DNA of 63,525 bases, counting the filler, from Sphaeroforma arctica JP610 (lineage: Eukaryota), in the NCBI RefSeq assembly GCF_001186125.1. It is 4 parts of 2 records of this genome, joined end to end, with 100 filler letters (N's around TTAATTAATTAA, not from the genome) between each part and the next. Parts side by side here need not be neighbours in the genome. Positions count along the whole stretch, not along the records: positions 1 to 28,263 come from NW_014040547.1; 3 more parts are not named here. One strand, given 5' to 3'. Positions 1 to 58,200 of the stretch are shown here, in pieces; position 1 is the stretch's first letter, and each line of letters starts with the position of its first letter. A program made the position numbers and the translations under genes. Below the pieces are notes generated by a model. That model worked only from the letters and a program-made list of their open reading frames with translations, was not told the DNA's origin and made no database searches.

Positions 1-1150
1 GCGCTTTTAGCCGTCGACCAATTCAACTCTGACGGGACACTGAAGAAAGTTCGGATGTGTTTGGATATGAGCCCAATTAAGGCTTTGATACCGACACACA
101 ATTTTCACTTACCAAGGATAAACGAACTGCTCAGGCGCATGGAGGGAGCTAAGATATTCTCCACTATCGACCTGACGCAGGGCTACCACCGGATGAAGAT
201 CTACCGAACACATCGGAAGTATTTCACCTTTACCTGGGAGGGTCAGCAATATTCGTTCAAAGGTGCCCCCTTTGGGTCACACATGTTACCTGCGTTCTTT
301 CAGCAAAATATGCAAGAATTGTTTAGGGACATGGACAATGTACAAGTATACATTGATGACATTGTGGTATTCACCAAAAACCAAAGAGGAGCACGAAAGG
401 GTTGTGCGAGAGGTTCTAGACAGGCTCAAAAAGCACAACTTTAAGGTCAACAGTAATAAATGTCACTTCGGTGTTAACGAGATTCAGCTGTTGGGTTACC
501 GAGTATCCAGGGATGGAATCATGATCGATCCCGGGAAGGTCGTCCACTTGCTAGACTGGAGAACTCCTACCACGGGTAAGGATGTCAACAGCATGTGTGG
601 ATTCGGCAACTTTTTGTCTGACGGAGTACCACACCTGGCAAGTTATTTAAAGCCCTTTGGACACTTGAGATGTCATAAAGGCAAACTCGGCGCGCTGTGG
701 ACCAAAGACTGTGATGACGCATTTAAGCAGCTCCAAACAGTGGTTCAACAGGCACCAGGAGTCCAGCCACCAAAAGATGGTATTCCATTTTTGGTAGCAA
801 CAGACGCATCCAACATGGCACTCGGCGGCGTTCTGTATCAAATGATTTATGGGAAACCGAGATATGTACAGTTCTTTAGCAGAGCTATGAATTCTTCTCA
901 GATCAATTACCCACCCGTGCAACAAGAGCTTTTGGCTATTGTTACTGCACTCACTCATTCTAAGGATTATCTATATAGCACACACTTTAATGTGCTATGT
1001 GATCAGAAGTCATTGCAACACCTAAAGGACATGAAACCTAACTCACAGTTAGTCAGTCGGTGGCATGACACAATCGCAAAATTTTCTTTCGGCATAACAC
1101 ACATACCGGGTATTCACAATCAGTTATCCGACGTGCTATCTCGCTTCGTA
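1..1150 (+). pseudogene. Reverse transcriptase and RNase H of gypsy pol (frameshifted near 380)
   Basis: ORF 55..444 carries IDLTQGYH and YIDD; it continues in ORF 263..1345 with KCHFG..LLGY and the RNase H motifs. Confidence 0.93.
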
Positions 1151-1189
1151 CCAGACTTTAATAAGATGGTTAGGGAGTTGCTAGCTACG

Positions 1190-1560
1190 GATTGGATGGT
1201 CAATCCTAGGTGGTTTAAGATCGCAGACAACATACATGGACCACATACCATATATATGTTTGCCGCTCATCATAATGCACAACTGCCGAGGTACCGGACA
1301 CTGGAACATCCGAAAGGAGATGGATTCCAGATTGACCTTTATTAACGAGAATGCCTGGGCAAATCCTCCATGGTTATTAATACCACAGTGGTTAAATTAT
1401 GTACATATTCAAGATGCTACCATCACGTTGTGTTGTCCCCTAAGACACTCAGATAAATGGCTACCACAGTTGATCTCAATGATACAATGTGAGCCGATCT
1501 ATGTGGATAGAGAGGTAGATACTTTTTTCTACCAGGGTTTTAGTCCAAACGACGCCTTGG
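1190..1560 (+). pseudogene. Dam-like (DIRS-type) N6-adenine DNA methyltransferase domain, in frame after RNase H
   Basis: DWMVNPRWF...GPHTIYMFAAHHNAQLPRY...DGF, then a frameshift near 1340, then AWANPPWLLIPQWL...TLCCP...W. NPPW is at 1362-1373. This fits the pattern DW.L...F.....GP..IDLFAS..N..LPRF...DAF...W.....Y..PP..LI of DIRS-associated MTases. Confidence 0.82.
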
Positions 1561-1839
1561 CGACATATTATTATATGTTGAATAGGTCCAGTTGGAACAA
1601 CCAAGTGGCCACCATCCGAGACTTTCAAACAGAAGGTTGAGGAAGCCAAGATTCCACTCTTGAATCCTAAGTCTCAATCAGAGACTGGGACAACACAAGC
1701 ACCTGCAGTATGTGTTACCGAGATACAGCAAAATTCAAAGGAATCAAAGAGGAGCGCATCACTAGCGAAAGCCTTCTACAACAAAATACGGTCTGACAGG
1801 GAAACTGCATACCAAGCAGAAACTCGATTGCTTAAGTAA

Positions 1840-3060
1840 TTGATGAATGACTTTCCCGAGGTATATGATCATGTGACCCAACTAATGGATAGATCAAATA
1901 TTAGTCGGATTCACGATGTAGAAACTTTAGGCGAGATTGGACACGACGAGTCTTCGAGTCCAGGTGATGACGCGGTGGAATCCTCACCTCCTGATTTCGA
2001 TGTAACAAGTAAATCACAGGAGGCGATTCTGAAGTGGTTAAGACAAAATCATGCTCTTAAGCACATGGATAAGGCCAAAACTGAGAAGGATTGCAAGAGG
2101 TACGGAATCGTACACCCGAACCTCAAGCAATATATATCTCAGGTGTATCACGAATGTAACAACTGCGAAGTTAGCCGGATCAAGCGCTACGGATACGCAC
2201 CTTTACGCAGCGTATCAGAAAACGAGCCGTGGCGCCGGGTTATCATGGATTTGGTTGAGCTACCCACGTTCGAACACACAAAGGATAAATATGTCTGTCA
2301 TGTGTTTGATGTCGCATCAAGATATAATGTATTGTATACGCTGAAAGATAAATCGACACAAACTGTGGCTGAGTGCATATATAAGTGCTTCGCAGATTTC
2401 GGCTGGCCAGCCATTGTATGTTCCGACAACGGTTGTGAGTTTACAGGAGATGTCATGACGACACTGTTACTCGTTGCGGGATCATGCCATAAAATAGGTG
2501 TACCTTACAAGCCTCAGACACAAGGTGCGAACGAGGTACAACACAGAAAGATGATGGAGTTTATGCGAGCAGCACTTCTTGATGATGCTGACATGTGGCC
2601 GTACTCAATCAACTGAGTACAGACACAGATGAACGAATCCCTTGATTCAGTCACTGGTACAACACCCGCTCACTATTTCCGGGGCCGTTATAGTGAATTA
2701 CAGATCCCCTTCAACAAGGAGTCTCAGGATGATCATGTGTTACCATGGTTAGTGAAGATGCGTCGGGCCAGAGATGTGGTCTATCCTTGTTCAAGGGAGA
2801 TGAAGGACATCGCTCTCAAGAAGAGACAAAAGCGATGAAATGATACAAAGAAAATAGTCGAGTTTGAGGTAGGCGATATAGTCGACATTATGGCTCGCAA
2901 CTCCGATACAACTGTGCTTAGGGCTAAATATATTGGACCATTTATGATCTCAGTGACCGATAAGAAGAGCGGAACGTATGAAGTTAACAATGTTGACGGC
3001 TCTAGTGCCTTAAATATCGGGTCACATCGAATCCCTAAGACAGAGATCATCCTTCGTCGC
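1840..3060 (+). pseudogene. DDE (rve) integrase with HHCC zinc finger and GPF module; internal stop codons
   Basis: H..KH...CNNC; PWRRVIMDL; VCSDNGCEF; PYKPQTQGANE; YIGPF. Confidence 0.9.
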
Positions 3061-3084
3061 ACACGTGAAGCTACTACACCTCTT

Positions 3085-3235
3085 ATGTCTTACGAGTTTA
3101 CGAATATTATAGGGAAATACAAACATGAGGATATGACATATTACGCTACGGAGTTCGCCGATGGAGCACAGTATGATCTTTCACCATCAGCATTTGATGA
3201 TCCGGATGCACTAAAGGCTTTTAATAAGAAGTTTC
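3085..3235 (+). other. Chromodomain-like tail of the integrase
   Basis: YEFTNIIGKYKHEDMTYYATEFADG...DDPDALKAF resembles the YEVE.I.......Y.V.W.G......L..F chromodomain pattern and sits in the usual chromovirus position. Confidence 0.5.
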
Positions 3236-3578
3236 GCAAACGCTTACACAAAATAAGGCTGATGCAGAAGCAATCTTACCATCGAATAAGCGACCCGACG
3301 TGGTTAAGATCTATCCACAGTCATTATACATTCCCAGCTTTAAACAGCATGGAATGTACGTACCTCCAAAAGGCATCAAGGACCAAAGCCCAAACGTAAT
3401 AGAGTAACCGAGTGAATTGTAACGTCTAAATATACTTTGTCAAAGAGAATATAACATAAGCATTGAGGCCGTTATATGATCGAAACCCATTTCTTTTCTT
3501 TTCGCTTGTGCAATTCATGTGATCTTTTTTAGTCTATGTGCTAATACCACATATAAGCCAACAATGAAATTTCAAGCT

Positions 3579-3588
3579 GAGGGGGGAC
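3579..3588 (+). promoter_or_regulatory. Polypurine tract
   Basis: gaggggggac immediately before the TG that starts the LTR at 3591. Confidence 0.8.
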
Positions 3589-3590
3589 TA

Positions 3591-4494
3591 TGTAAAAATA
3601 GCGGGTTCCTAATAGTAGTTGCACAGTTAACGTATATTATAAACGTATTATCGTATTAACGTTTATACAAATGATACTAGAATGCGTTTAACGTATTGTA
3701 CATGAACAAGAATTGAGATATTCAAGATTCTGAACATGTGATAGTACTCAGTAGAATATGGGACTCTATTGTGGACAATTAAGTGGTTTTCCAAATATAG
3801 ATTGGTTTTTTCCCCACTGAAATTTATAATGGTACATAATTTAGGAATGATACAAATCTGACACCTGAAAATGACACTTTGGGAATCTCTAATTAACGGG
3901 AGCACCATGAAAAAGGGTCTCAGGCATGAAATGGTTGTTGGTACAAACCTATGGTATAATTCGATAATAATCTCATAGCAAGATAATCCTCTGAGAAAAG
4001 GACAGGATCAGAGTTGTTAGAATTTAGGACGACATGGTTTTGATTCCTCCTAGCCAGCCAACTAGATGTGCCCATCTATGCCTTAAATGGGATGGGGAGC
4101 TAGGTACCAAGTGATGGGGTTTAGGTGCAGATATATACTGCACCAGCTTGGTGTTTTGTTTTTATTTTTTATTTTCTTAAGTTGAACTTAGCGATATTTT
4201 ATTGGTTATTTTGAGTAGATAGTTGTTTCGAGGCGTGAAATGTAAAATATGCATCCAATGAAATGATATCTAGTCTTAGTAACTAAAGCATAAATAAATC
4301 TAGACCGAAGTAATGAGTGATTAGAGCGGAGCATATAATAGTCTCAGTCTAAAATCCCCTAATCTTTTGCTCACTACTAAGGGCTGAAGCTAAACTTATT
4401 TTAACATTTTGCATTTTAACGTTTTAACGTATGGTCTTATTAACGTAAACGTTTTGGTATCGTATAGTCAGCCTAGAGGAGACCGACTTTAACA
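3591..4494 (+). repeat. 3' LTR (~904 bp, TG...CA)
   Basis: Begins tgtaaaa after the PPT and ends ccgactttaaca. Both ends are supported by the related inverted copy at 11228-12007. Confidence 0.8.
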
Positions 4495-7400
4495 TAATTT
4501 TAAGTTTATAATACGCTATCGATATTATGACAAAAGGAAATAATAAGGCAGCGAATGTAGTTGTGGAGAATGACATCAAAACAAAACCCCACCCGGCAAT
4601 CCATGATCATAATTTATGTAGCAAGCAAACAGGGTCTGCCATGCCTGTGTAGGTCAATGCAAACTAATGGGGAATGGAGACTGTATGAGAAATCAACGCG
4701 TGAAGTTGTACAAACGAAGTACAGAGGAAAATCAGATCAGTCTCGGAATATCTTTCAGATATGGTGTAGATATGTGAATGGATATACTATCTTCCTGAAA
4801 CTTCCTTTGCACTTCACTCCTGCCGCGGCAGAGTTCAGAAAGATGGCAGAGCGTTTCAGAACACATGCAGAAACTCATGCAGATGTCGAGATCCTACATA
4901 CCAATTCAAAAACCAAAGACACGGCCGAGTCTGCGACTGCCGACGTAGAGAAAGGGCAGCGACGAAAGTGTGCATATGATAGTGCTCAACCTGCAGAAAC
5001 ACCACTGTCAACAGTTGAAGATACATATTTTGCCTTCCTGACACCATTAGCACAGGGAGAATCAGATTCATAGCAAACACCGAAGCTATGACAATACAAA
5101 GTGCCAGAGCAGACAAGCGCCGCGGCGGTAGACGGCGTATGACTGACATCAACTTACTCTCAGGTCATACACAATCAACACACCAAGGGACGAAGAACAG
5201 GTCAACTTACACACAGCCACCAAAACCACCATCAAATCAATAAGTATACGGTCATCAGCAAGGGTTGCACACATCACAACGCCCACCAAATATATATCAA
5301 AGGCCTTCGACTCAGCGTCATCTGCGCTAATATAATTTATGCCTCACATCAGCTATTCATATATTCAACTCAGCAACAAACTCATCAGTATAATTTAGGC
5401 TCCCATCAAGAATTTGTGCCCCCAAGTCAGCAAAAGCAAGCTATACAGTCTCCAGGATCACAACCATGTATAGACACAAATCAATATCGACAACTAGTAC
5501 AGCTGCATCCAGGCTCCCAGCAATCAATTTTGAATGTAAATCAGCAATAACAATTATTGCAGCAATCAGCTTATGCAAATAAATTATATTCTTATGCATA
5601 TCCCTATAATCCCAAAAGTAAACAATTAAACCAAGCTGTTTTGCTTTATTCGGCTACCCCATCAATACTGAGCATGAGAATAGCGAATGTACATGCAATG
5701 GGATAAGGAGGCTCACCACAGGATGCAAAGCTAGGCCTATTATCTGTACCTGTGTTACATTCGGAAATTGCATCGCTGCATGCGGCAGAGAACCTTTGTG
5801 ACTCGCACTGTTCTTCTGTATCTCTGAGTTTGTCCCGCACCTAAAATCTATGCGCTTTTTTTGCCCTAATCTTGTATTCTGGACCAAACAGTGGTTTCTT
5901 CCTCACCACTGCAGAGCTCCCCTTTTGCACATAAAAATTTGTACTCGAACACGTGTACACAAAAACACGGCCTTCTTTGTCCGCGACTGCTAAATATGGG
6001 ATCAGTGTCTCGTGTCCAGAACGGTAGAGAATATAAGAAATATAAACATCTAGGACAGCTAAAAGTAGCTAGGCTTCACTCAATTCAGGCGCTGCCTACC
6101 GCCCTGATCTGGTACTATGGTCCTTCGAGATATACTTTCTTAGTATTATCTTTGTCATTTCTTGCAGGCTACATTTACCTTTCTTAAATATTTTTCTCTC
6201 TTTCAGGTAATTTGCTGGGGTTATACCTCCTGATATTACTATACCATGTTCTTGTTGTATATGGCGCATATCGACGGACGAAACCATTGAACCCACCCAC
6301 GTGCACCTTGCTGTTGAAGGAACGCACGCAGACTATTTGGTATTGAACCACTAGATAGTACAAGATGTAGACTTATTGGTATACACACCTTATCAGCACC
6401 AATCTGCATCAAATGCAATCCGTTCACTAGATCATCACCCGAGGTTGTTCGTCGCCCATTCCAGGTCAAATGCACACATATTTCTCAGATCAGGTGTAGC
6501 TTTGATATTAGCATTGATTAGTACTTACAGACCATGTCCGAGTTCAGCAGAATTGTTTGTCAGCAGTTGTGTGTAATCGGTCGGCAGAGTACATAGAGGT
6601 AGATCAGAAGGATGATCGTCAACAACAATCGGCGGCAGAGATTCGTTGGAGAGATCGGGCGCAATTCGCTCAGCCAGAGCCTCGTTGGCTATGTTGTCAT
6701 TGTAAATTGCCTAGTTCTTAATACCCATCCTCACGGATCTATCGTGAAACTCACGTAGGGACTTCCCTGCCTCAATGGCAGACTTCGTTGTAGTTAAGAT
6801 TGAAGTGCACTTTTATCGTGCTTATTCACTACAGTAAATAAGGCACTCAAATGGCGACGCATGAACTTGTGTCATATATGCGTTTTGTAGTTCTAAAACT
6901 ATGGTCCCTTTTTAATATGCAAGCACTCAGTTGCTGAATACGCAAATCCGAATACGACCGCGCAGCCTGATTTAGATCGTGTACTACTGCACCTAGGTAT
7001 TTTCCGAGTATTTTCCATTGTAGTCCATACGATCATGATCTTGAGACCACGTCTTGGCCTTCTATGCATGATCTGGATCATCGTACAAGTAAGGTGTAGA
7101 TTTTTCAGTGTAAGCAGAGTCAGCCAGGCAAGCATCCTGTGATGAAATCTTTTCATGTGCAATTTTTTCAAACTTCTGCTAGATCGTTGACCGTACCGCT
7201 TTCCAAGAATCGGTTCTGCAATTCGTTGATCATAACGACATCGACACCTTCCTTGTGTATGGAATAGGCAGGGAAGTCTAACTGTGCATGAGCAGGTACA
7301 AGCGCAGTCACCACCGAGTTAAACGCTTGCTGCATGTCAAGTCGCTTTGTTGAAAAGCTGTACGTATTCCTAATCAATGCTTTCAATGTACTCACCAACT

Positions 7401-8535: not shown

Positions 8536-9679
8536 TCTTGTGTATCTTTTTATATTATATCTTTGTTGTTTGTGTTTGTGTATATAGCTACAGTGTACTA
8601 TACCATGCGATATTATCAGAATGAACTGGTAGAGACTCAGGAAAGCTTCATTTTTAAAACTTTAATATTGCACTATTCAATATTGATCGTAATCTTGTGC
8701 TAAAATTAATCAGCCACTGAGTATTGAGCTTGGAGTTAATCCTTTTTTGGGACTGACCAATGTGTGTTAAGCTTGTTATTTTCCGGCATGGCCAAAATAT
8801 CAATACAATTACTAAGGACGTCAGGAGTATTTTCATTTTTCTATTTTACTTTTTCCTTCTAAGAATATAGGTTTGGGAGTCCGTCGATTTCGCCCGACGA
8901 AACATAGTAATACTTTCGCCTAGACGAACAACGAAAAGACCCTTCTGCGAAATCATTACTGGGAAGATTCTATATAGGCAATGTCTCAACCCTTTAATCC
9001 CCACACAGAGTATTGTTGTCTTCACGAGGCCTACTTTCGTATACTTTACTTTTTACTGAAACTCTAAGATACTTCAATATGTTATCAGCTTTAAGACGTT
9101 AATATCACCTTAAGAGACCGATTTTTATAATTGAGTCTTTTATTATCTATTACAAGATGAAAAAGGTGATTTTACATAGTGAATAACATAGTTGGTATTA
9201 GTGCAACCAATCTGAGCACTCACCATACCCCTACTTTGAGATTTCATTTGCTCGCTCATTTGATTAGGATGTCCCTGTTATGGAGTTATATGTCAAAAAT
9301 AGTATTAACAAACATCCGAAGACGGTTACACTTACTACAAAACCCGTTCATGGATGGGACAGAAGCATGGCTTCTTTGTAATTTTTAATAAGAAATGGAG
9401 TAAGTGGTTACATAAAAATACACGAGACAAACGGAAGGGCTTTCCTTACTGTAAATCCTGATGAATCTGAAATCCCTCATCTGCCACCTACTTCTTATGT
9501 GCCAAAACTATTAGAGCTGCTTACAAATAGTGAAGAACAACCTCGGGCTGTAACCTTGCATAATAAACGTAAAGAATCTAAATCGGAAAAGGTTACTGGG
9601 CCGTATACTAAGCGACATAGAGTACAACATACGTATAGGACTAGTACATATTCGTATATTCTTGCCTAGGAGACATGAC

Positions 9680-11100
9680 TGACACCGTTTTACTTTGAAG
9701 GTTGCTTTAAGAACTAGATTGTTCCCTCACGGACGTTCGTAACTCTGCAGCCATTCTCTTGTAGCGCATGTCTGATACAATTACAACCGATTTCAATACG
9801 TCATCACAGACCTCGCGATACCTGGCCACACGTGGTCATCAAAGAATTGGCAATATAATTATGCCACAACGGCTTGCATACTCATGTCTTTTAAAAGATG
9901 AGTAGGTTAAATCGTGACGCCGCATCGGAGAAGTGACATTCGTAGAGGTCGCATGTGTGCTCGGACGTGGACAGGTCAATCACATCAATGATATCCCTGT
10001 GCAATAGAGCATCTTCCATCACACTTTGAACCAATGCAAATCCCTAGCCCATGATCTGATTAAGACCACAGTCTGAACATAGCTGATTTGACTGTGTTTG
10101 TTCGTGTCGCTAGCTCAGAATACGCTACTCCAGTACATTTGGTGTCCTTGAAGGCTTCTACTACATTCTGGTGTTTCAGCTTATGGGTTTACGTGAACCT
10201 GTGATGCGAGAATATGTTCTTCATTCTGCTCTTCCAGAACAAAGACACGGTGTAAAGTATTCGCTTGTATATTCTCTAGTTCTATAGTGCCTTCAAACCC
10301 CCATACTTCTATTGTGGAGGCGCCGTGAGTGCAATTGAATATATTAGATACACTCAACTAATTTAATAGTCGCATTATATGTGTATATATTTTGGGTTTA
10401 TCTTTTCATAAGTCCAACTAGGAAGAGTGTCTGAACGACTTCGGGTATCGGTCGTATATTATTGAATACTTAAGGCTCGAGCTAGATATCAACGCTTTTC
10501 AACAGCTTTATCTGTAGTAGATTGTATTTCTTGTGCAAAAGCTTGAGGTGCAGAAATTATTATCAACATAATGTTTGGTATTATATCATGCCACCTACTT
10601 AATAAATGAGAGCCTAGCTGTACCTTTTCCATATACGTGTGAAAAGACTTCTGATCGCACATCAACGTAGAAACTGTACCCTATAAGTAATCTTTATAGT
10701 GCAATAACTGTTACTATAGCCATGAACTGTTTAGCAATTCTTTGTGGTTGGTAATTCAACTGTGAGGTATTCACTGCTCTTCTAAAGACTGAAAATATCG
10801 AGGTTTGTCATCTATAACTTGATGTAGAAAGCCTCTTGAGGTAAAACGGAATGCGTTAACATTATGAGTTGGCGACAACTTATTTAGTGGCCTCGTGTCT
10901 CAACATACTCTGATCGTCTTTAACAAATCGTCAGACTGCTATTAGAGCTAGATTATCCCGGTAAAGTTTGTTGGAAATCAATTTCGATTACCTCATCGAA
11001 AAACTAGTTCTCTATTTGTCCTTCCACTACAGTCTCATGTCGCCAAGATTTATAGCTTCTTGAAAGACATTTTAGCGTAGTAAAGTCTAACTTCTAACTT
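9680..11100 (-). mobile_element. Heavily decayed gypsy pol remnant (RNase H and integrase) related to the element at 1-4494
   Basis: Minus-strand translations: LLSRWHDIIP (~10600; compare LVSRWHDTIA), CSDC (~10075), IDLSTSEHT (~9970; compare VELPTFEHT), LKDMSMQAVVA...FDDHVWP (~9830-9900; compare LKDKSTQTVAE...FADFGWP). Confidence 0.7.
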
Positions 11101-11227
11101 GATAAAGTCCATGTTAACATACCCGTCGTTAAAGCAGAACTTTGTCCGTTTACAAGTATATTATCCAGTATATTGTCTGCGAAGTTAGGTTCTTGACTGT
11201 ATCCGAGGGAGGTGTACATGTGTCAGA

Positions 11228-12007
11228 TGTAAAAGTCGGACAAACCAGGCTTACAGTACCATTTCGTTTACGTAAAAGAAATTACGTTATTAAATCAAAC
11301 TGCAAAAAATCAATCAAGTTTAGCTTCAGCCCTCGGGAATGAGCAAAAGACTAGGGGATTTAAGACAGAGGCTATTGTTTATATAGCTCCGCTCTAATCA
11401 CTCATTACGTCGGTCTAGATTTGTTTGATATCAGCAATAAGATCAGAGTATATCCCATTGCATGCATAATGTGGACAAAGTATTCTAGGCAGATATTTAG
11501 GATCGGACCAGAGGACCGGAACTGAAATTAGAATTTAGGACCGGACCGAGGACCGGACATAGGGGATTGTTTGAGGACCGGATCAGAGGACTGGTCCGAT
11601 TAGTGGAATAAGAATTTAATGAGATAGAAGTGATGACTCATCCGAAACCATAAAGACGAGTATTTTCATATCACCCGATGGTAGGGCTAAACATTGGTAG
11701 ACATCCCAATAGCCATAAAAAATAAATATCAAAAGCACCAACCTTGTGCAGTTGTTTCTCTGCACCTATACCCCTTCACTTAGTACCTAGCTCGCCATCC
11801 CATTGAAGGCATAGACGGGCACATCTAGTAGGCTGGCTAGGATGAGTCGATATCATGTCCCACTTCTTACTGGATTATCTTGTGCTGAGAGTATTGCAAA
11901 ATATATCATGTGCCGTCAAGTGTCAAATTTCACCCGAGACTCAGCGATGATTATATCTTTATATTTTGGTGGGAACATATCATAGAGAAACCACCAACAT
12001 GTTTACA
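11228..12007 (-). repeat. Diverged LTR of the same family, inverted, with internal ggaccgga-rich repeats
   Basis: Its reverse complement matches 4040-4150 and 4295-4494. Termini are tgtaaac...ccgacttttaca, and a PPT-like gagtggagacta lies just upstream on the minus strand (~12009-12020). Confidence 0.8.
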
Positions 12008-12081
12008 ATAGTCTCCACTCTCTATTGTATAAGATCGATTTTTAAAAAAAATCTAAAATTGGAAGATGTAATTATTTTAGC

Positions 12082-13260
12082 GTGATTCAGAAACGCAAGT
12101 CACAAAGCACTACAATTATTATTGATAGACTCAGACATCACTCAGTGGAAAATTTGATAGATAAGTTTCTCAATGGCATGAAGAACAGGTCATTGAACGT
12201 AGAGGTGCACACAGAGCGGTTGCATAAAACAATGCAAGTGTTAGAGGAGCGTTACCGAAACACGGGCAAGGAGCCAATACACACACAACTCCTCAAGATA
12301 GCGAGATACATGGTACTCATGTACTATGGACAGCAAGAGAAGGTAAACGCAATCATTAAATCAGACAAACTGCCTGATGGAAGTGGTGATCGCTTAGAAA
12401 ATATGAAACATAATGTGTTATACTCTCCTACCGAAGCAACCATAAGAGCAGCAGCCAAAGTACAAGAAAATCGTTTGCACAGATTGCGTAATATATACAA
12501 ATCGAACGTGGCTACTCACAGCTTAACACAGAACACTACAACCACTGTTGCCAAACGTCATAAACCAGACAATGGCGCACTAAGACAGACGAAACCAACA
12601 GGACAGCCCCAAGAAAAGAAAGAGGCACGCGAAAAAACGTGCACGTCCTTATTGTAAAGCCTGTGTCCTATGAAGGCATCGAATCAGAACAAGAAGGCGG
12701 AGGAGCGTGCCAAGAACGATATGCAACTAGCTAGACTGTCTCTCACCTCCGAAAAGGTAGAGGATATAACATATAGCGATAGTTCTGAAAAAGCTATTGG
12801 GCGGAAGCAAACATGATTGACCTGGCTGACAGGCTAAATATAAATGTAGATGACGAAACGTTGCTAACAAACAGAAATGATGTAAATTATCAACCTTTAT
12901 TCTTGCTTTCCGCACCATGAGATCAAAGATTACACATTGATATACGAACTAATTGCAACATATACACTGTACTAATAGACTCAGGTGCACAACGCTCATT
13001 TACGGACAAAGGTATAGTAACTAAAGCATATATATCAGTCAGAGCGCAACCGGGCTACATACAACTAGCATAAACAGATGCGAGAATTGAATAAACAGGA
13101 TCAACCCAGGTATGTGATATTAATTATGGGGGAAAGAATACCTCTCAATGTTTCGAAATACTGGATCTACCAAACAAAGAGGCACCAATACTTCTTATCA
13201 CAGGAGGAGACAGAACAATTAGGATTATTCCTAAAGACCTCACGCAAATGAAACACCAAT
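12082..13260 (+). mobile_element. Decayed gag-like ORF plus retroviral-type aspartic protease remnant
   Basis: A 191-aa helical/basic ORF is followed by VLIDSGAQRSF at ~12969-13001. The gag call rests on position only. Confidence 0.6.
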
Positions 13261-14559
13261 AGACTTTACACCCAATACTAGCCAAATATATAGCAAAAAC
13301 ATTCCACCACTACTACTTCTCCATCATACATGTGTAGAAATACGACCTCCGGTCAGTCTAAAGTATCAAGATCAAATGAGATAACACATTGGTTATCTTT
13401 GTATTTAAAATATTTTAATACAAGTTCTTTTTCCAATATTTCCAATGTGTTCTAAATTGACTTTGATGGCTCGAATAGCCAGAGTATTTGGTATGACTCA
13501 TTTACTTCGACCTATTTGAGACGATAGTAGATGTAGGATATTAAAAACTAAATTTTATAATCTCTGAAATAGTTTGGTCTTCCCGCCAATCTCCAAAACC
13601 CAATAAGTCTTTTTAATTTTTTAATTTTTCTTCAGATGGAACTTTATAGATATTAGCTAATGTATTAAATTGACTTACGTTCTTATGTCTATCTACAAAT
13701 TAGACATGTGGTCATGAACACTTAGTACTTCTAGTGAGAATTATTCAATAAAGAACAGCTAGAGGTACGTCCTGTGTGATCGAGGTTATTAAAGCTCTTA
13801 CCAAGAGGCAGTCCCAATCATTCTTACACAAGCTACCACTGCTAAAGCCTAACTGACTTAAATTGTATCTTAGTTTATATAACATAGTTTAAAACATAGA
13901 AATATCCATCGAAGTTTATACATGTTCCAGGCAAAGGTAACCGAATGGCAGTTGTGTTGCCGTGTCTACACGAAAACAAGTTTAATACCAAAACGTTAGA
14001 GGTTTTTAAAGACGCGAACAAAACAACACATACACAGCAGCGAAGTAGACCATGACATACCATCTTAGAAACAAACATGTCTATAACCATTGTATTATGT
14101 TGTATAGACTAAATGTTACACCTCAGATTCTAAGAAAAAACTGAAAGAAGGTTTGATAGATTCATGTATAGTAGATCTGTTGACATCGGCACACAATGTA
14201 CATACAGACTAATTCAATTACACAAAAGAATTGAATATGCTCCTACAGAAGTGTGTGCAGGAAGTAAATGCATGGTCAAAACCACTGTGGGAACTCATAC
14301 CTGGTGTCTTGGACGAAGTCATTGAGGAAGATATCAACATCATAACAGTATGTGTACCATACTACCCCATGCAACAGTGATTTTCAAAATTTCGGTCTTT
14401 ACTAGAAGAAAACCCGATACTAGTGGAAAACACAAACAACACAATGTCCGTAAGGAAGGCACAAAAACATTTGAATGTCACATTAGGGATAATATTATTT
14501 ATTTCAACAACAAAAAAAGATTTGTTACAATGTATGTATGTAGTAGTGTATGAACATAT

Positions 14560-14900
14560 GATATGGCTCTCATAGCCGTTGTAGTGGTTCGGGAAAATCG
14601 ATGGGAAGAAGTGGTCAGTAAATTACCGTTTGAAGCTTGGGCCAAGTGAGTCGACGATGGATGATATGTGCTGAGTCAATTCGGGTCGGTGCTGACAAAA
14701 CACTGTATGACGAGATGTGCTCTCATTATATGTCATAATCAGACCAATGAGCGACAAATCAGCTGCAACTGTAGCACGTACGCTGTTACCAATAGCGTGT
14801 GAACATGGGCTCCCACAAATCCTACAGGCAGACTAAGGCACTGAATATTTTAATGAAATACTCTCAAAAGTCATTGAACAAGTGCCGACACAACACTTAG
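14560..14900 (+). mobile_element. Decayed integrase core fragment
   Basis: AATVARTLLPIACEHGLPQILQAD*GTEYFNEIL at ~14762-14865. Confidence 0.7.
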
Positions 14901-15706
14901 TCTCTCGCTCGGCACAAACTATTTAGAAATTTTATGCATGTGCTTGGCTACTTGCGCGAATCTAAATATGTAAATTCGTGAATATCGTGAGTTCAAGAAT
15001 CGTGACGCATCATGAATGCGGAATGTCACTATATGACGCAAGTATTTATAATTTATGTAAACAATACTTTAAAAAAACAAAAAAACAAACAAAATACTGC
15101 TAGTTGGTCAAGGGCCTCAACCGCCTTCAAAGCTCAAACCTCACGGGGCTCAAACATCAGTGCATACTCCATTGCTCTTTTACGAGTTTACCGTGAGCGT
15201 AATGGCTATAGTCACTATAGTGTATAGATAGTAGTATTGTTTACCCTGTATTTAAGGTCTATGTACTGAATAGAAGTTGAACGGAAACGCATATTTTATT
15301 CGATTTATATAAGTAACAACATTTTCAACTTTGCACTTGGGAGTTGGCATTCAGACACCTATTTCTGTTAAATTGAACAACGAGGGTTGTTTATTTACGC
15401 CAGAATATTGAATATAAGACAATCTTGGTAACCTGATATATACACCCTGTATAATTTGGTGCTTGATGAGGTGATGACTCGTTCTGTGTATCTTTTGAAA
15501 ATTTAGGTCTGCGGGCAATTTTGGGTTCAGTTCGGTAAAAAATATTTACGTACATTTCAGGAGCTTTTTTTAAAAGAAAAGTGAATTCAGAGTTACGTAT
15601 CGGTTGCTTTTTTAGAAAAAAACCTCCCCAACCCCTACTACTAATCTACTAAATAAATACATAAGGACTTTGAGTCTTTGTCAACTTGAGACTATTATGT
15701 ATAGAC

Positions 15707-16970: not shown

Positions 16971-18738
16971 ATGGCCAGTTTAAAGCAAGCATGTAGTCGT
17001 CTTAATAGCTCCGCTGCTACACAATCAGAATGGACTAAGAAAGTAGAAAAGCCCATTGCCGTTGCAAATAGTATTTGCAAGCCTACTGGTGAAGCGCATT
17101 GTCAACTACGCCGGTCTATTGAAGGGCATCTAGAACTGGAGCGACGAGCGTCGTGGTACTTATGATTTGGTGGTGTGTGCCCTTGATATGGAATATCCCT
17201 CTGCTATGAAATGGGGGTTTGAACAGTAGTATGGACTTTGTAACGAGTCTAAACTTTCTGATAGTCGTGGGCAGCAGAAACGAGTTTTTCGTATGGTTCG
17301 TATACATACTGATTACCAATGTCAGTGTGTTGCTATGTGCTCGGTCTAGATTCAAAATATTCCTCAATCGCATGGCTTACAATCTGGGTGGTCTTCACGC
17401 AGGCTTAGTCATGTTCCTAATAGTGTCACTAATTGCTCAGATTATCATCCGATATAATGAGGTGGACACAGTGTGCTTTTCAGCCTTTCTGCTAGTTGGT
17501 GTTCTGGCTATATCAGTCTTTGCATATCCAGCTTATCGACACAAGCAGAAGCACCATGATTATTTCGAATACAGCCACCGCTTCATTGGCTGGTTGCTGG
17601 CTGTAGTCGTAATTGTGCAGATTGTGTATACCACAGTTGTAACCAATGGTGATCTCTGGCGCTCCGCATCAACCTACTTGCTGGTGTGTTCAGTGTTCTT
17701 GGTTACTTGGCCGTGGATAACGATGAAAAAGGTGACCATGGATATCGACGCACCCTCTAAAATGGTAACAACACTAACCACAGCCCAATCAACAGCCTTT
17801 GCGTGTGCCGGTACCACAGGGCGCGTTTCGTTTGGATTCGCATCTCATTACCACTCTTTCGCTATCCTCAATGCATTGACTGGTGACAAGGGTACCACGT
17901 TTACAGTAAGTTCTGTAGGAGACTGGACGTTAAAATTGAACGCAAAAGGATCAGAAGGTGGGGGTGTATATCCATCTCATGTGCCCAAACCTCATACGAT
18001 GTATGTTCGCCGGTTTGCAGCACCAGGATTCATGTATCTCGCACGAACATATAAACGCGTCGTGTGTGTGGGAACTGGTGCTGGGATTGCTCCGATTGCC
18101 TCGTATCTGCCTGACCCAACCACAAATATGCTATTACTCTGGGTCGGTAGGGACTTCAAATCTACCTATGGCGCATTGTAGGATACTATCATCAAACACA
18201 AAGACCTCATCATGGTGGACATGACGCTTCCTTCTAGTGTGGACAACCCATGCGAACCACTATCGGATGAGATTCTGTATTCAAGCGCCACCACCCCAAC
18301 CGCACAGCTAGCTGCGATGGGCGAGGGGACAAACAGCGATCAACATGAAAACCTCGAGCGCAAGCAGAGCATCGCTGAGTTGACCATTGCTTACTTAGAG
18401 GCGGAAGACAATGCAGCTGACACTGCGGCAGCTCAGAATGTTAAAATAGACGTGCCTTGTGTCGAGCTCAAACAGGGTAACAAAATATTCCCAGCTATCT
18501 CATTTTGTCCCACAGGTACAGTGGCGCTTGTGAATGAAGAGCAGGCAGAGGATGCGGTTCCTATCCCGCCACCGGGTAAAAAAAACGTCCCAATTTGTCA
18601 AAGCTCACACTGGCAGCAGTTGAGGTATACAAAGCAGACGCAGTGTTCATTGTCTCTGGTCCTAAACCAACTTATGATCTCACACATGCGCTCTGGAAGC
18701 GTGGCATCCCGGCGTACGGTGCCACGTGGGATAGTTAA
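16971..18738 (+). pseudogene. Intronless TmpA/NPS12-like membrane flavo-oxidoreductase (ferric-reductase-like TM region plus FAD/NAD-binding region), disrupted
   Basis: GGLHAG, HHDYFEYSHRFIGW, YHSFA, GDWT, RVVCVGTGAGIAP, RPNLSKL and terminal RGIPAYGATWDS*. Lesions: frameshift near 17130, TGA near 17207, TAG at 18179, frameshift in the poly-A at ~18578-18586. Confidence 0.72.
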
Positions 18739-19433
18739 GGATGACACTTCATAGCGATAAGAAAAGTTGATCTCATTCGCAAACATCGAGACAATACAGA
18801 CTTTTTAAAAATACAAAGCACATACTATCGAATCTCTTATACTTTGAGTTGCTTGCTGTATAAATATAGACGCTCCACTAGCATTCGCTAGTATACTTTT
18901 GTCTGTGTTTGGAGGTGGTTTCAAGTTGTCCGAGGTCGCAGTCTCTAAGGATATCAAATGGGGCAGACTAAATGTGGTTAAATGTTGCGTAGATATATAA
19001 GAAATCTTTTAACTGGCCAGGTCAAAATCGGGAAATGGACGGTGAAGACGAATGCACACAAGCGCTGATAGAAGCGGGGTGCCTTTGTGCGAATAAGCAT
19101 TCTATACAGTCTTCATTCGATAGTATCTTCGGTATACTAGCTAATTGTGATATCTTTTTGAGAGATTTTAAGCCTGAAGTGATGTAGGAGCAACCATCAG
19201 TATAAGTATTGTACATGAAAATATCGCTAGTGTCCATCCGGAGATCAAAACGTTCCACAACACGATCACTCCTTTTAATCTTTGCAAGCAGCCCTTGTTC
19301 TGGCTCACGCCCTGTCGAAATTGCTGCTACAATACCTAACCATTGCAAACTATATTATGACACGAACCTTTGTCGCTATTATACACAATGGCCTGTGCTT
19401 ACAAGCTATAGACCATTATGCGTCAATTTGACA

Positions 19434-55200: not shown

Positions 55201-58200
55201 TACCCTTACTACGCTCTCTCATACTGGTAAGTGACTACTACTAGTCAGAACACTGTTAGTCACAACAACCAGTACATACCCTTACTACGCTCTATATATA
55301 TATATATATATGTAATGCATGTATTGATGCATATATCCTGGTTGTTCGCGCACAATTCCGCCGCCTTCACGCTCACTCCTCTCTAATTGTCCACTATGCA
55401 CCCACCAGGGACCAACTCAACCTCGACCAGCACGTGCTGCTGCGCACGTCGCCTGACAATGAAGAGGGTAAGAAGGAGTACTGGTTGGTAGACACCCCTC
55501 GCTTCACCAGCATGCTGGACCTCATTGAGTTCTATCAAAACAACACCCTGCTCACAGCCGATGGCGATGAGATGGTCCTCACCAGACCACTGGGAGCGGT
55601 ATGTAGGGGTGCGTGAGGCGCATGAGCGTGGAGAGTGATGAGTGGCGTTGTGTGTGTTGGGTATAGAGTACGTGCAAAGGAACTGTAGACATAGTACGTG
55701 CTCATGTGCGATAGACTTGGTCTGCTGCTTGCTTCTGGTACACTCTTCGATAGTTAGGCGTATTGCATACGTGGTACGTATATTAAAAACGTACTACGTA
55801 CTTGGTATACGTTTTTGCAGTGTGTTATAGACGTACTACACACTTGCTACTGTGAGTAAGGTAGTGTACTGCTTGCGTATATGTCGCAGATTTGTTTACA
55901 AATGTGCCCTGCCTTTAGCGCTTTCCTCTGTTGTTATCACTTGCTCGCATGCTACTTACGGCCCATTGGTAGGTAACTACTACAGAGATCGCATATGCGC
56001 ATTATACCTACACACGCCCCTATGGAAATACGTACAACCGCATACATAATAATAATACATGCATCTGATTGTTTCCGCTGTGGTGTGTCTATTCCGGCGC
56101 GTACAAGGAAAGCGTACATACAAATAGCTACACACACACTTATATATATATATATGTATACGCACGCACGCACTCATCTTCGAGCATTTCCACGCACACA
56201 GGTGCCTGTACTGACCAACGAGCAAGGGATCTCACTATATGACTGGTACGACCCAACTATGGCCAAAGAACAAGCAGAGTACCATCTCAAACGCACCGTC
56301 AAGGATGGCAGCTTCCTCGTCAGAAAAGCCACAGACGACGCCAACGCATACACCATCTCATTCAGGTATGTAGGTAATTGCCAAATATAGGAACCATCAC
56401 ATTCCGGTAGTTTGTACTTTACTAGGTGATTGTAGACAGTTGAGTGTATGATCTCATTCATGTAAGGTCTGTTATAGTGGCCATCCTATACATGTAATTG
56501 ATTGTACTTGCTCCGTGACTGTGCAGTACAGCTGCACTGAAATTGATGACTGGAGCATATGATCACACACACATATATATATATATATATATCACCTTAC
56601 TAGCCAACGTATCAAAGATAGGAATTCTTCTTTGTGGGCCTGTTCGCCAACAATATTATCTCCCCAGGCCTCGTACTTATACTCCTGCCCTCCTCCATGC
56701 ACCTGTCCTTTTAATTCAGGGCCGGTCGGGGCATCAAGCACTGTCGGTTGCAACGCGAAGGGCGGTTCTTTGTGGTGGCACCTGGTCTAAGGCGATTTGA
56801 TACCATTCCCGATCTCATCGAATACTACCAACGCCATGTGCTCTACCGCAAAACTAAACTCACCAAAGCCGTTAATAAGATGGTAGGTGTACATGGGAAA
56901 CTACACACACAGACATGTATGTGCTGGTTTACTTAGACATATACATGCATGTACTGTACTTGTACATATACATGCAAGTACGGTACATTTACATGTATGT
57001 ACTGTACTTGTACATAAACATGCATGTACTGTACTTATACATATATATGCATGTACTTGTCCATATACATGCATGTACTGTACTTGTACATATACATACA
57101 TGACTGTACTTGTACATATACATGCATGTACTGTACTGTACTTGTACATATACATGCATGTACTGTACTTGTACATATACACATGTACTGTACTTGTACA
57201 TATACATGCATGTGCTGTACTTGTACATAAACATGCATGCACCTGTAGTCCCATGCCCTTGTTATCCCACCCGGATCCACTTTCCGATTTCAAATTCCCT
57301 CATCTCACCCACCTTTATCATTTGCCTTCCTAACTCGCCCTTATTCAACCCTTGTCACTTGTCTTCTCATTTATTGTCTTTTATTTATTCCAATCGTATT
57401 CGCTTGTCTTCTCATTTTATTAATTCTACTCTTATTCACTTGTCTCTTCATTTATTGTCTTCTCATTTATTGTCTTTCTATTTATTCTATTCGTATTCGC
57501 TTGTCTTCTCATTTTATTGATTCTACTCTTATTAACTTGTCTTCTCATTTATTGTCTTAATTTCTTCTGGTCTTATCCACTTGTCTTCTCAGTCTGCGCA
57601 AGCGGCGGGGGCGGAAGTGTCGAAAGAGCTGTACATGCAGACATACTGCGACACCAATTACGTCGACATCAACCAGGACGGCGTATGTTAGCCTGATCAA
57701 AGGCCAATGGAACTGTGTTGTACGCGTGTGCGTTGCAAGTATCAATGTGACTGTGTGGTACAAAGGACAATTGCTCAGCCCTAACATATGTCTGTCTGTG
57801 TGATAAACTGTAGCACTTGTTTAATAAACCCTAACACATATCTGTCTGTGTAATAAACCCTAGCACATATCTATCTGTTTAAATGTTTGTCGTGCGGGTG
57901 ATGTGCGATGCAATTGCCACATACGCATTACTAATTGCAATTGCAATGTTAGTATGTCGAGAGGTTTGCGTATTGGCTCTATTGCCTACTGTACTGCTGA
58001 GTGTATTGACATGCGGGTCAGCCCTATGGCCCACTGCTGGATGTGTTCTCTGCATGCACACGCACCTCGCACTCGCTATCGATTGATTGACGTGGCAGTG
58101 TGTTGTGGTTGTTTTGTGCTTTGTTTCTTGTACTTTGTATATATATATGTGTGTGTGTGTGTGTATATATATATATGTGTGTGTGTGTGTATGTATTTAT

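What the first reader, a model, noticed from the sequence alone, without database searches (positions are those of the whole stretch)
1..4494. Ty3/gypsy LTR retrotransposon carrying a DIRS-type N6-adenine methyltransferase between RNase H and a DDE integrase
Seen: pol continues in frame from RNase H into DWMVNPRWF-GPHTIYMFAA-NAQLPRY, then after one frameshift into AWANPPW. It is followed by an HHCC/DDE integrase, GPF module, chromodomain-like tail, PPT and TG..CA LTR. Known: this Dam-like MTase after RNase H is characteristic of DIRS tyrosine-recombinase retroelements, which lack DDE integrase and canonical direct LTRs; NPP(Y/W) is the catalytic motif of amino-MTases. Inference: this is a gypsy lineage that captured a 6mA methyltransferase, perhaps to mark or protect its cDNA or target sites, alongside a possible chromatin-reading domain. 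I do not know this architecture as a standard family. This copy is dead (frameshifts, and an apparent D-to-Y change in the IDLFA motif).
Basis: partly seen in the sequence, partly recalled or inferred. Interest (0 to 1): 0.9.

Follow-up and report, generated by a model that had tools for sequence, protein, structure and literature searches.

The report
Dead gypsy retrotransposon carrying adenine methylase
This is a broken copy of an abundant gypsy-type jumping gene that carries a phage-like adenine-methylase domain between its RNase H and integrase; such elements were described in a 2026 preprint, likely including this very lineage, and the only addition here is a predicted, worn-down chromodomain that the preprint called absent.

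Summary
Observation confirmed. 1-4494 is the 3' part of a Ty3/gypsy element: RT, RNase H, a Dam-family (PF05869) N6-adenine methyltransferase (MT) with NPPW, DD35E integrase, SH3/GPF module, chromo-like tail, polypurine tract and a 904-bp TG..CA LTR. The MT is integral, not a nested DIRS scrap: two relatives (67-69% identical) carry it in one unbroken Pol, 19 of 153 proteins examined show RT-RH-MT-IN, the MT is as conserved as RT, and RT and MT trees agree. This copy is dead (four frameshifts, four premature stops). It is not new: a May 2026 preprint names these DAM-LTRs and an ichthyosporean lineage, and the closest named relatives here are Sphaeroforma arctica, Abeoforma and Pirum proteins. 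This scan has also found DAM-LTRs in other genomes. Two additions: (1) the lineage, described as lacking chromodomains, has a divergent one (profile chain 97-99%, fold Z 8), with a degraded aromatic cage in this subfamily; (2) the MT's closest solved fold is the RNA methylase PCIF1, although predicted phage methylases rank higher. Likely mechanism: methylation of the element's own RNA:DNA or cDNA intermediates, seeding host-maintained 6mA; activity is unproven.

The parts
1..510 (+). Reverse transcriptase, cut by the window start; YIDD motif; frameshift near 376
   Evidence: Pfam RVT_1 E 1.8e-16 and 9.1e-7 on the two frames; 73% identity to P0002
695..1153 (+). Ty3/gypsy-type RNase H
   Evidence: Pfam PF17919 E 2.3e-26, PF17917 E 7.7e-26
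1187..1590 (+). Dam-family (PF05869) N6-adenine methyltransferase domain; NPPW motif IV intact, motif-I Asp replaced by Tyr in this copy; frameshifts near 1340 and 1540, stop at 1579
   Evidence: Pfam Dam E 3.4e-4, below cut-off; own profile 6e-14 and 4e-20; 67-69% identity to intact P0002/P0003; model of P0003 domain pLDDT 94, fold matches
1591..2019 (+). Poorly conserved linker, stop at 1837
   Evidence: 28-29% identity to P0002/P0003 against 52-73% for the domains
2020..2691 (+). Integrase: HHCC zinc finger and D-D-35-E core; stop at 2614
   Evidence: Pfam rve E 1.8e-11, Integrase_H2C2 E 0.046; motifs
2839..3078 (+). Integrase C-terminal GPF / SH3-like module (stop at 2836 just before it)
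   Evidence: Model residues 1-78 align to PFV integrase C-terminal domain Z 6.0 and to KOW/Tudor barrels; Ty3 intasome is top Foldseek row, E 1.2e-3
3085..3252 (+). Divergent chromodomain with degraded aromatic cage; frameshift near 3249 just after it
   Evidence: hhalign chain 97.2% and 98.6%, 0 of 100 shuffles each; direct link marginal, 1 of 100 shuffles; model residues 77-138 align to chromodomains Z 8.1, 7.9, 7.4, rmsd about 2
3579..3587 (+). Polypurine tract
   Evidence: Sequence, 3 bases before the LTR
3591..4494 (+). 3' LTR, 904 bp, TG..CA with short imperfect terminal inverted repeat
   Evidence: Sequence; depth drop beyond it in 4 of 4 runs; 79-86% identical pieces at 11257-11859

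Best explanation
This is a dead copy of a multi-copy Ty3/gypsy DAM-LTR retrotransposon, likely of the ichthyosporean lineage in a Sphaeroforma host, whose Pol-borne adenine methylase would most likely methylate the element's own RNA:DNA or cDNA intermediates so that new insertions are likely kept transcribed. Shown: domain order, a single ORF in intact relatives, conservation of the MT at the level of RT, intact NPPW, concordant RT and MT trees. Inferred: (1) being part of Pol, the MT is packaged with RT, RNase H and integrase; (2) it starts 8 residues after the RNase H match, is a compact fold of about 140 residues followed by a poorly conserved linker, so it probably relies on RT/RNase H or the particle to reach substrate; (3) it adds N6-methyl to adenines of the nascent DNA strand; (4) after integration the host AMT1 system maintains 6mA, the mark of active chromatin in these protists (model of the preprint). 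The C-terminal chromodomain is predicted to be a retained chromovirus module that likely no longer reads methyl-lysine in this subfamily. Identity about 0.95; mechanism about 0.45.
For: Pfam domains in window. P0002 and P0003 are unbroken RT-RH-Dam-IN ORFs, P0003 with protease. 19 of 153 proteins have RT, RH, MT, IN in that order in one ORF (the search query held MT and IN, so the set is enriched by design). Window against P0002/P0003: MT 69/67%, RT 73/63%, RH 65/71%, IN 52/56%, linker 29/28%. NPP[W/F] in 23 of 30 aligned MTs; [DNSH]PP[YFW] is the catalytic motif (PMC4738411). RT: best solved relative of P0003 is Ty3, E 6e-57 to 6e-63; window RT sits in a 12-row clade (SH-aLRT 97; 9 MT+IN rows) far from two DIRS-type RTs; MT tree gives the matching clade, 99. 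Depth over the MT bins is 60-440 times the flank in 4 of 4 runs, similar to neighbouring pol bins. A second, different decayed RH-MT-IN element lies at 12810-14917. Named relatives: S. arctica proteins 57-83% identical to window integrase and tail, Abeoforma and Pirum more distant. Preprint: DAM-LTRs of S. arctica and A. whisleri are enriched for 6mA and more expressed than other LTRs. PCIF1, the closest solved fold (Z 10.7), methylates RNA/DNA hybrids and ssDNA in vitro (PMC9178792 abstract).
Against: No activity has been shown: representative eukaryotic DAMs gave no 6mA in dam-deficient E. coli (preprint). Iyer et al. judged DIRS1 MTases likely inactive. P0003, the model folded here, has CPPW rather than NPPW, and 7 of 30 rows depart from NPP[W/F]. 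Pirum P0013 lies in the same RT clade with no MT match, so the domain appears dispensable or was lost there. The window's own MT scores below the Pfam cut-off. 6mA enrichment is a correlation and could follow from transcription. The host is inferred from transposon proteins only. Trees are quick trees with SH-aLRT only, and the DIRS-type references are unnamed proteins classed by architecture.
Confidence: 0.6

Rival explanations
1. The MT is an RNA methylase working like PCIF1/CAPAM: it puts m6A or m6Am on the element's genomic RNA to affect stability, translation or packaging, and the DNA 6mA on copies is laid down by the host because they are transcribed.
For: Best solved-structure match is PCIF1/CAPAM in both searches: Z 10.7, rmsd 2.9, 133 of 143 residues, ahead of rRNA methylases (8-8.9), T4 Dam 7.9 and E. 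coli Dam 7.6; Foldseek top rows all PCIF1, E 1.4e-3. Iyer et al. place DIRS MTases in the PCIF1 clade. PCIF1 prefers ssRNA over hybrid over ssDNA over dsDNA. Fits the negative dsDNA assay. The preprint's main text does not mention PCIF1 (0 hits).
Against: Among predicted viral structures, small phage N6-adenine MTases rank first (E 5e-8, TM 0.75-0.81) and PCIF1-like proteins lower (E 4.5e-4 to 1e-3), so PCIF1 may top the PDB list only because that phage family has no solved member in the list. Pol is made in small amounts and works in the particle on reverse-transcription intermediates (general knowledge). A shared fold shows no substrate.
Confidence: 0.2
2. The MT is catalytically silent and is kept as a nucleic-acid- or SAM-binding, structural or spacer module of Pol.
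For: Negative E. coli assay; Iyer et al. prediction for DIRS1 MTases; motif IV degenerate in some rows (FAPT, FPPT, FPPY, FPPV, NIPF, CPPW).
Against: In this lineage NPPW and D-x-F-A are kept: 23 of 30 rows NPP[W/F], Asp in 29 of 30; such retention across proteins under 50% identity is expected of catalysis.
Confidence: 0.18
3. The MT is a one-off nested DIRS fragment or an assembly chimera.
For: Frameshifts sit inside and just after the MT; no single laid contig spans the whole stretch.
Against: Unbroken RT-RH-MT-IN ORFs at 67-69% identity; 19 such ORFs; a second family in the same window; MT groups with MTs of integrase elements, not with the three DIRS-type rows.
Confidence: 0.01

Closest known systems
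Ichthyosporean DAM-LTR lineage (Fernandez-Moreno et al., bioRxiv 10.64898/2026.05.21.726589; Pirum gemmata, Abeoforma whisleri, Sphaeroforma arctica)
   Same: Ty3/gypsy RT and DDE integrase with a Dam-family domain bearing NPP; closest named relatives come from exactly these three species.
   Different: The preprint says this lineage lacks chromodomains; here a divergent one is supported for the window subfamily and for Abeoforma and Pirum proteins, scoring too low for Pfam (Abeoforma P0038 E 0.015). Whether this exact family is in their tables could not be seen (supplements not available).
DIRS1-like tyrosine-recombinase retrotransposons (RT-RH-MT)
   Same: Same MT family directly after RNase H; 31% identity to the DIRS-type P0004.
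   Different: RT is gypsy-type and far from the DIRS-type rows; DDE integrase, purine tract and TG..CA LTR present; no tyrosine recombinase hit in the ORFs scanned.
Chromoviruses with group II chromodomains (PMC3350952)
   Same: Chromodomain at the integrase C-terminus with lost cage residues.
   Different: Plant group II lack Y24 and usually Y48 but the paper's motif keeps W45 and TWE; in the window subfamily the W45 position is Phe in 5 of 5, the Y48 loop is deleted, the Y24 position is Tyr in 2 of 5 and the TW Trp is kept in 1 of 5.
Phage PF05869 N6-adenine methyltransferases and PCIF1/CAPAM
   Same: Same compact fold and motif order; PHROG 111 hits on relatives P0082 and P0032.
   Different: Embedded in Pol; lacks PCIF1's WW and helical domains; substrate unknown.

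Membership tests
Ty3/gypsy LTR retrotransposon | Order protease-RT-RNase H-integrase in Pol | tested here: met
   RT-RH-IN in window; protease upstream in P0003; the window itself starts inside RT
Ty3/gypsy LTR retrotransposon | RT of Ty3/gypsy type | tested here: met
   P0003 best PDB hit Ty3 RT; window RT 63-73% identical to P0003/P0002 and away from DIRS-type RTs
Ty3/gypsy LTR retrotransposon | HHCC and DD35E integrase with GPY/F module | tested here: met
Ty3/gypsy LTR retrotransposon | Two direct LTRs, primer-binding site, target-site duplication | tested here: inconclusive
   Only the 3' LTR and purine tract are in the window; no genome held. LTR-like pieces lie on the 5' side of a decayed sister copy at 11257-11859
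DAM-LTR | Dam-family domain in the same ORF as gypsy RT and integrase | tested here: met
   Broken in the window, unbroken in P0002 and P0003
DAM-LTR | NPP catalytic triplet kept | tested here: met
   NPPW in window; 23 of 30 relatives NPP[W/F]
DAM-LTR | 6mA enrichment and expression of copies | not testable with these tools
   Reported for S. arctica DAM-LTRs in the preprint; no methylation data here
Ichthyosporean DAM-LTR lineage | Groups with Abeoforma, Pirum and Sphaeroforma elements | tested here: met
   RT clade with Abeoforma P0006 and Pirum P0013, support 97; MT clade with P0005 and P0006, support 99; S. arctica fragments up to 83% identical
Ichthyosporean DAM-LTR lineage | Lacks a chromodomain (as described in the preprint) | tested here: inconclusive
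   True by Pfam; profile and fold tests show a divergent chromodomain, also in the Abeoforma and Pirum proteins, so the description rather than the membership looks wrong
DIRS1-like retrotransposon | DIRS-type RT and integration by tyrosine recombinase rather than DDE integrase | tested here: not met
   Gypsy RT and DDE integrase
Chromovirus | Chromodomain at integrase C-terminus | tested here: met
   Divergent; profile chain and fold; direct link alone marginal
Chromovirus | RT groups with named chromovirus clades | not tested
   No named reference RT set was on hand; tree rows are mostly unnamed
Methyl-lysine-reading (group I) chromodomain | Aromatic cage Y24, W45, Y48 | tested here: not met
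   W45 position Phe, Y48 loop deleted; cage definition from PMC3350952
N6-adenine methyltransferase (active) | Methyl transfer to adenine | not testable with these tools
   Fold and motifs only

The most novel reading that the evidence does not exclude
Ichthyosporean DAM-LTRs are cryptic chromoviruses that pair a 6mA writer with a chromodomain which has dropped methyl-lysine reading, switching the element from hiding in heterochromatin to making or seeking active chromatin; and the writer is a PCIF1-like enzyme acting on RNA or RNA:DNA hybrids, which would explain why it was silent on E. coli double-stranded DNA and give the first assay for the long-unexplained DIRS methylase domain.
Probability: 0.15. 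Interest if true: 0.6.

Novelty: already known. Interest (0 to 1): 0.27.

Why it matters
The architecture is striking but has been in print since May 2026, with methylome data for the likely host. What this window adds is modest: a chromodomain overlooked in the ichthyosporean lineage (probability about 0.85 that the fold is real), which changes how the lineage is classed, and a pointer to RNA and hybrid substrates for the still unproven methylase. Two natural intact Pol proteins (P0002, P0003) are ready starting points for that assay.

Tried and rejected
No whole genome is held, so copies could not be collected and dN/dS was not computed; variant counts by codon position over the MT were not obtained, and constraint rests on protein identities. 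Sequence search of PDB with the MT gave only chance hits. A profile of 14 MT-bearing proteins against PDB was flooded by integrases and showed no MTase among the best 60; it did list HP1 chromodomains at E 3e-4, but the alignment held a canonical chromodomain (P0107), so this is not counted. A region search with the P0002 MT returned only P0002 and P0003. Metagenome scan with P0003: 39 pattern matches, none confirmed. The ESM Atlas gave no answer for the tail. Pfam Chromo: no hit on the window tail. Direct comparison of the five-member subfamily tail with canonical TE chromodomains was marginal (14.8%, 1 of 100 shuffles as high; single-sequence E 0.16). Foldseek found nothing at E<=0.001 in PDB for either model. 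PHROGs: no hit for the window MT itself. Expression: no RNA holder listed; X10 is only guessed to be RNA. The careful RT tree did not finish; the quick tree is used; RT matches under 140 residues and the multi-RT P0047 were dropped (79 rows kept); the MT tree kept 33 matches of 100 residues or more. Literature: 'DAM-LTR' 1 paper; ichthyosporea + chromodomain + LTR retrotransposon 3 papers, two of them on Capsaspora and Salpingoeca and seen only as listings; Sphaeroforma + 6mA + AMT1 1 paper; these searches found no report of a chromodomain in this lineage. Repbase and GyDB could not be searched.
Full report
1. Observation. From base 1 the + strand encodes RT (RVT_1 E 1.8e-16), gypsy-type RNase H (E 2e-26) and an integrase core (rve E 1.8e-11). 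Read with X at that break, the 129 residues hit only Pfam Dam PF05869, E 3.4e-4, 20.8 bits against a cut-off of 28.1. HHCC, D-D-35-E and GPF are in the sequence. A purine tract at 3579-3587 precedes a 904-bp TG..CA repeat at 3591-4494. In 4 of 4 runs laid, summed contig depth over the MT bins is 60-440 times that of the flank at 4554-4700; the tool warns that this is no copy number, but it shows a repeat family that includes the MT and ends near 4494. The copy is dead: frameshifts near 376, 1340, 1540 and 3249, stops at 1579, 1837, 2614 and 2836, and Tyr where 29 of 30 relatives have the motif-I Asp.

2. The MT is an integral, conserved part of Pol. A search for longer proteins gave 3 hits among 30 candidates: P0002 and P0003 at 69 and 67% identity and the DIRS-type P0004 at 31%. 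P0002 and P0003 are unbroken ORFs with RT, RNase H, Dam and integrase, P0003 also with protease. A HMMER scan of 1.84 billion representatives with the MT-to-tail part of P0002 and a domain map gave 19 of 153 proteins with RT, RH, MT and IN in that order, and 27 with MT and IN; the query favours such hits. Pfam Dam passes its cut-off in many of them. Identity of the window to P0002/P0003 is 73/63% for RT, 65/71% for RNase H, 69/67% for MT, 52/56% for integrase, 50/45% for the tail, and 29/28% for the linker, which points to constraint on the MT; dN/dS was not computed. A second decayed element with RH-MT-IN, of another subfamily, lies at 12810-14917.

3. Gypsy, not DIRS. The best solved relative of P0003 is Ty3 Pol (E 6e-63). 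In a quick tree of 79 RTs the window falls in a 12-row clade (SH-aLRT 97) with nine MT+IN proteins, Pirum P0013 without MT and one long-branch row, while the two DIRS-type RTs sit on a separate branch of length 3.9. The MT tree of 33 rows returns the matching clade (99) and puts the three DIRS-type MTs elsewhere. DIRS-type here means RT-RH-MT without integrase; these rows are unnamed.

4. Host and prior art. Named relatives are Sphaeroforma arctica JP610 gene fragments (57-83% identical for three of them over integrase and tail; others 30-67%), then Abeoforma whisleri and Pirum gemmata. The host is therefore likely Sphaeroforma; no host gene was used to confirm this. Fernandez-Moreno et al. 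(bioRxiv 10.64898/2026.05.21.726589; whole main text read; supplements not available) describe DAM-LTRs as at least four transfers from DIRS into Ty3/gypsy, name an ichthyosporean lineage in exactly these three species, report more 6mA and expression on DAM-LTR copies in S. arctica and A. whisleri, obtained no activity in dam-deficient E. coli, and propose methylation of RNA-DNA intermediates followed by AMT1 maintenance. Earlier notes of this scan reached the same paper for other genomes; none concerns this genome or sequence.

5. The tail. The preprint says the ichthyosporean lineage lacks chromodomains, and Pfam agrees for the window. Alignment A1 shows a gradient from the window subfamily to Abeoforma and Pirum tails with YxIxW..TW. 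The five-member subfamily profile matches the separately aligned tails of ten relatives at 97.2%, and those match ten Pfam-positive TE chromodomains at 98.6%, each above 100 of 100 shuffles; Abeoforma P0006 alone matches that chromodomain profile at 1e-8 in a nine-sequence search. The direct link from the subfamily is marginal (14.8%, 1 of 100 shuffles). An AlphaFold model of the window's own tail (pLDDT 82) aligns residues 77-138 to Oxpecker, SUV39H1, Rhino, HP1 and Chp1 chromodomains (Z 8.1-6.8, rmsd 1.8-2.0, 49-57 residues). These Z values are near the tool's background, though high for so short a domain and consistent in kind, and the alignment used for the model held two rows with weak Chromo hits. 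Against the cage Y24, W45, Y48 (PMC3350952, passages), the subfamily has Phe at W45 in 5 of 5 (Trp in 12 of 12 other rows), lacks the Y48 loop and keeps Tyr at Y24 in 2 of 5. A chromodomain fold is likely (about 0.85); classical methyl-lysine reading is unlikely.

6. The MT fold. The P0003 domain folds with pLDDT 94. Among solved structures PCIF1/CAPAM ranks first (Z 10.7, rmsd 2.9, 133 aligned), then rRNA adenine methylases, with T4 Dam at 7.9 (one search agrees at E 1.4e-3). Among predicted viral structures small phage N6-adenine MTases rank above PCIF1-like proteins (E 5e-8 against 4.5e-4 or worse), which favours the preprint's prokaryotic origin over derivation from cellular PCIF1 as proposed by Iyer et al. 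(PMC4738411, passages), who also judged DIRS1 MTases likely inactive. Here NPP[W/F] is kept in 23 of 30 rows. PCIF1 acts on ssRNA, hybrids, ssDNA and dsDNA in falling order (PMC9178792, abstract), so RNA and hybrids are the substrates worth testing; the preprint's main text does not mention PCIF1.

7. Mechanism. Shown: architecture, conservation, motifs, phylogeny. Inferred: the MT travels in Pol, begins 8 residues after the RNase H match in P0002 and P0003, and probably meets reverse-transcription intermediates; 6mA on the new DNA would be maintained by host AMT1 and favour transcription. I give this about 0.45, RNA methylation 0.2, a silent module 0.18; the remainder covers other roles such as protection of cDNA from nucleases, and a nested fragment is excluded.

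8. Verdict. Real, well read by the first stage, but already known as a class and very likely as a lineage. Interest 0.27, carried by the overlooked chromodomain and the substrate lead. PMC5890265 (cytosine methylases in retrotransposons) was seen only as a search listing.

Noticed in passing
window 12810-14917 (+): A second, different decayed DAM-LTR: protease, RNase H end, MT and integrase, 48-66% identical to P0008, RT deleted; MT profile hit iE 3e-15 with motif IV degenerate. ORF 12046-12654 upstream may be gag (no Pfam hit).
   Followed up: partly
window 9817-11859 (-): Heavily deleted sister remnant: LTR pieces 79-86% identical to 4031-4459, then scraps of RT, RNase H and integrase; no MT hit.
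   Followed up: partly
window 9173-9630 (+): Remnant of a P0003-like integrase tail including the chromo-like part, 44% identity.
   Followed up: partly
P0013 (Pirum gemmata): Same RT clade and chromo-like tail but no MT match between RNase H and integrase: a likely loss.
   Followed up: no
P0016, P0019, P0024, P0049, P0050, P0090, P0018, P0081: Further RT-RH-MT-IN proteins from unnamed metagenome records, in other parts of the RT tree, several with canonical chromodomains; P0050 and P0090 have degenerate motif IV. Could be lineages beyond the five in the preprint; hosts unknown.
   Followed up: no
P0028: A 94-residue protein labelled Shewanella sp. AS16 on a 284-bp contig is 69% identical to the window integrase: probably eukaryotic contamination of that assembly.
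   Followed up: no
window 55977-56387 (+): Exon with the first half of an SH2 domain, Pfam E 1.4e-9.
   Followed up: no
window 17210-18751 (+): Long hydrophobic ORF pair split by one stop, resembling a membrane oxidoreductase by eye (recalled resemblance); no Pfam hit at E<=0.01 for 17210-18178.
   Followed up: no
window 33104-33769 and 44633-45214 (-): Two ORFs sharing an N-terminal stretch ([17 protein letters not shown]), no Pfam hit.
   Followed up: no
window 20552-63525: Draft-assembly character: 3,828 N in 14 runs, dense AT/CA microsatellites and 13-54-base minisatellites.
   Followed up: no
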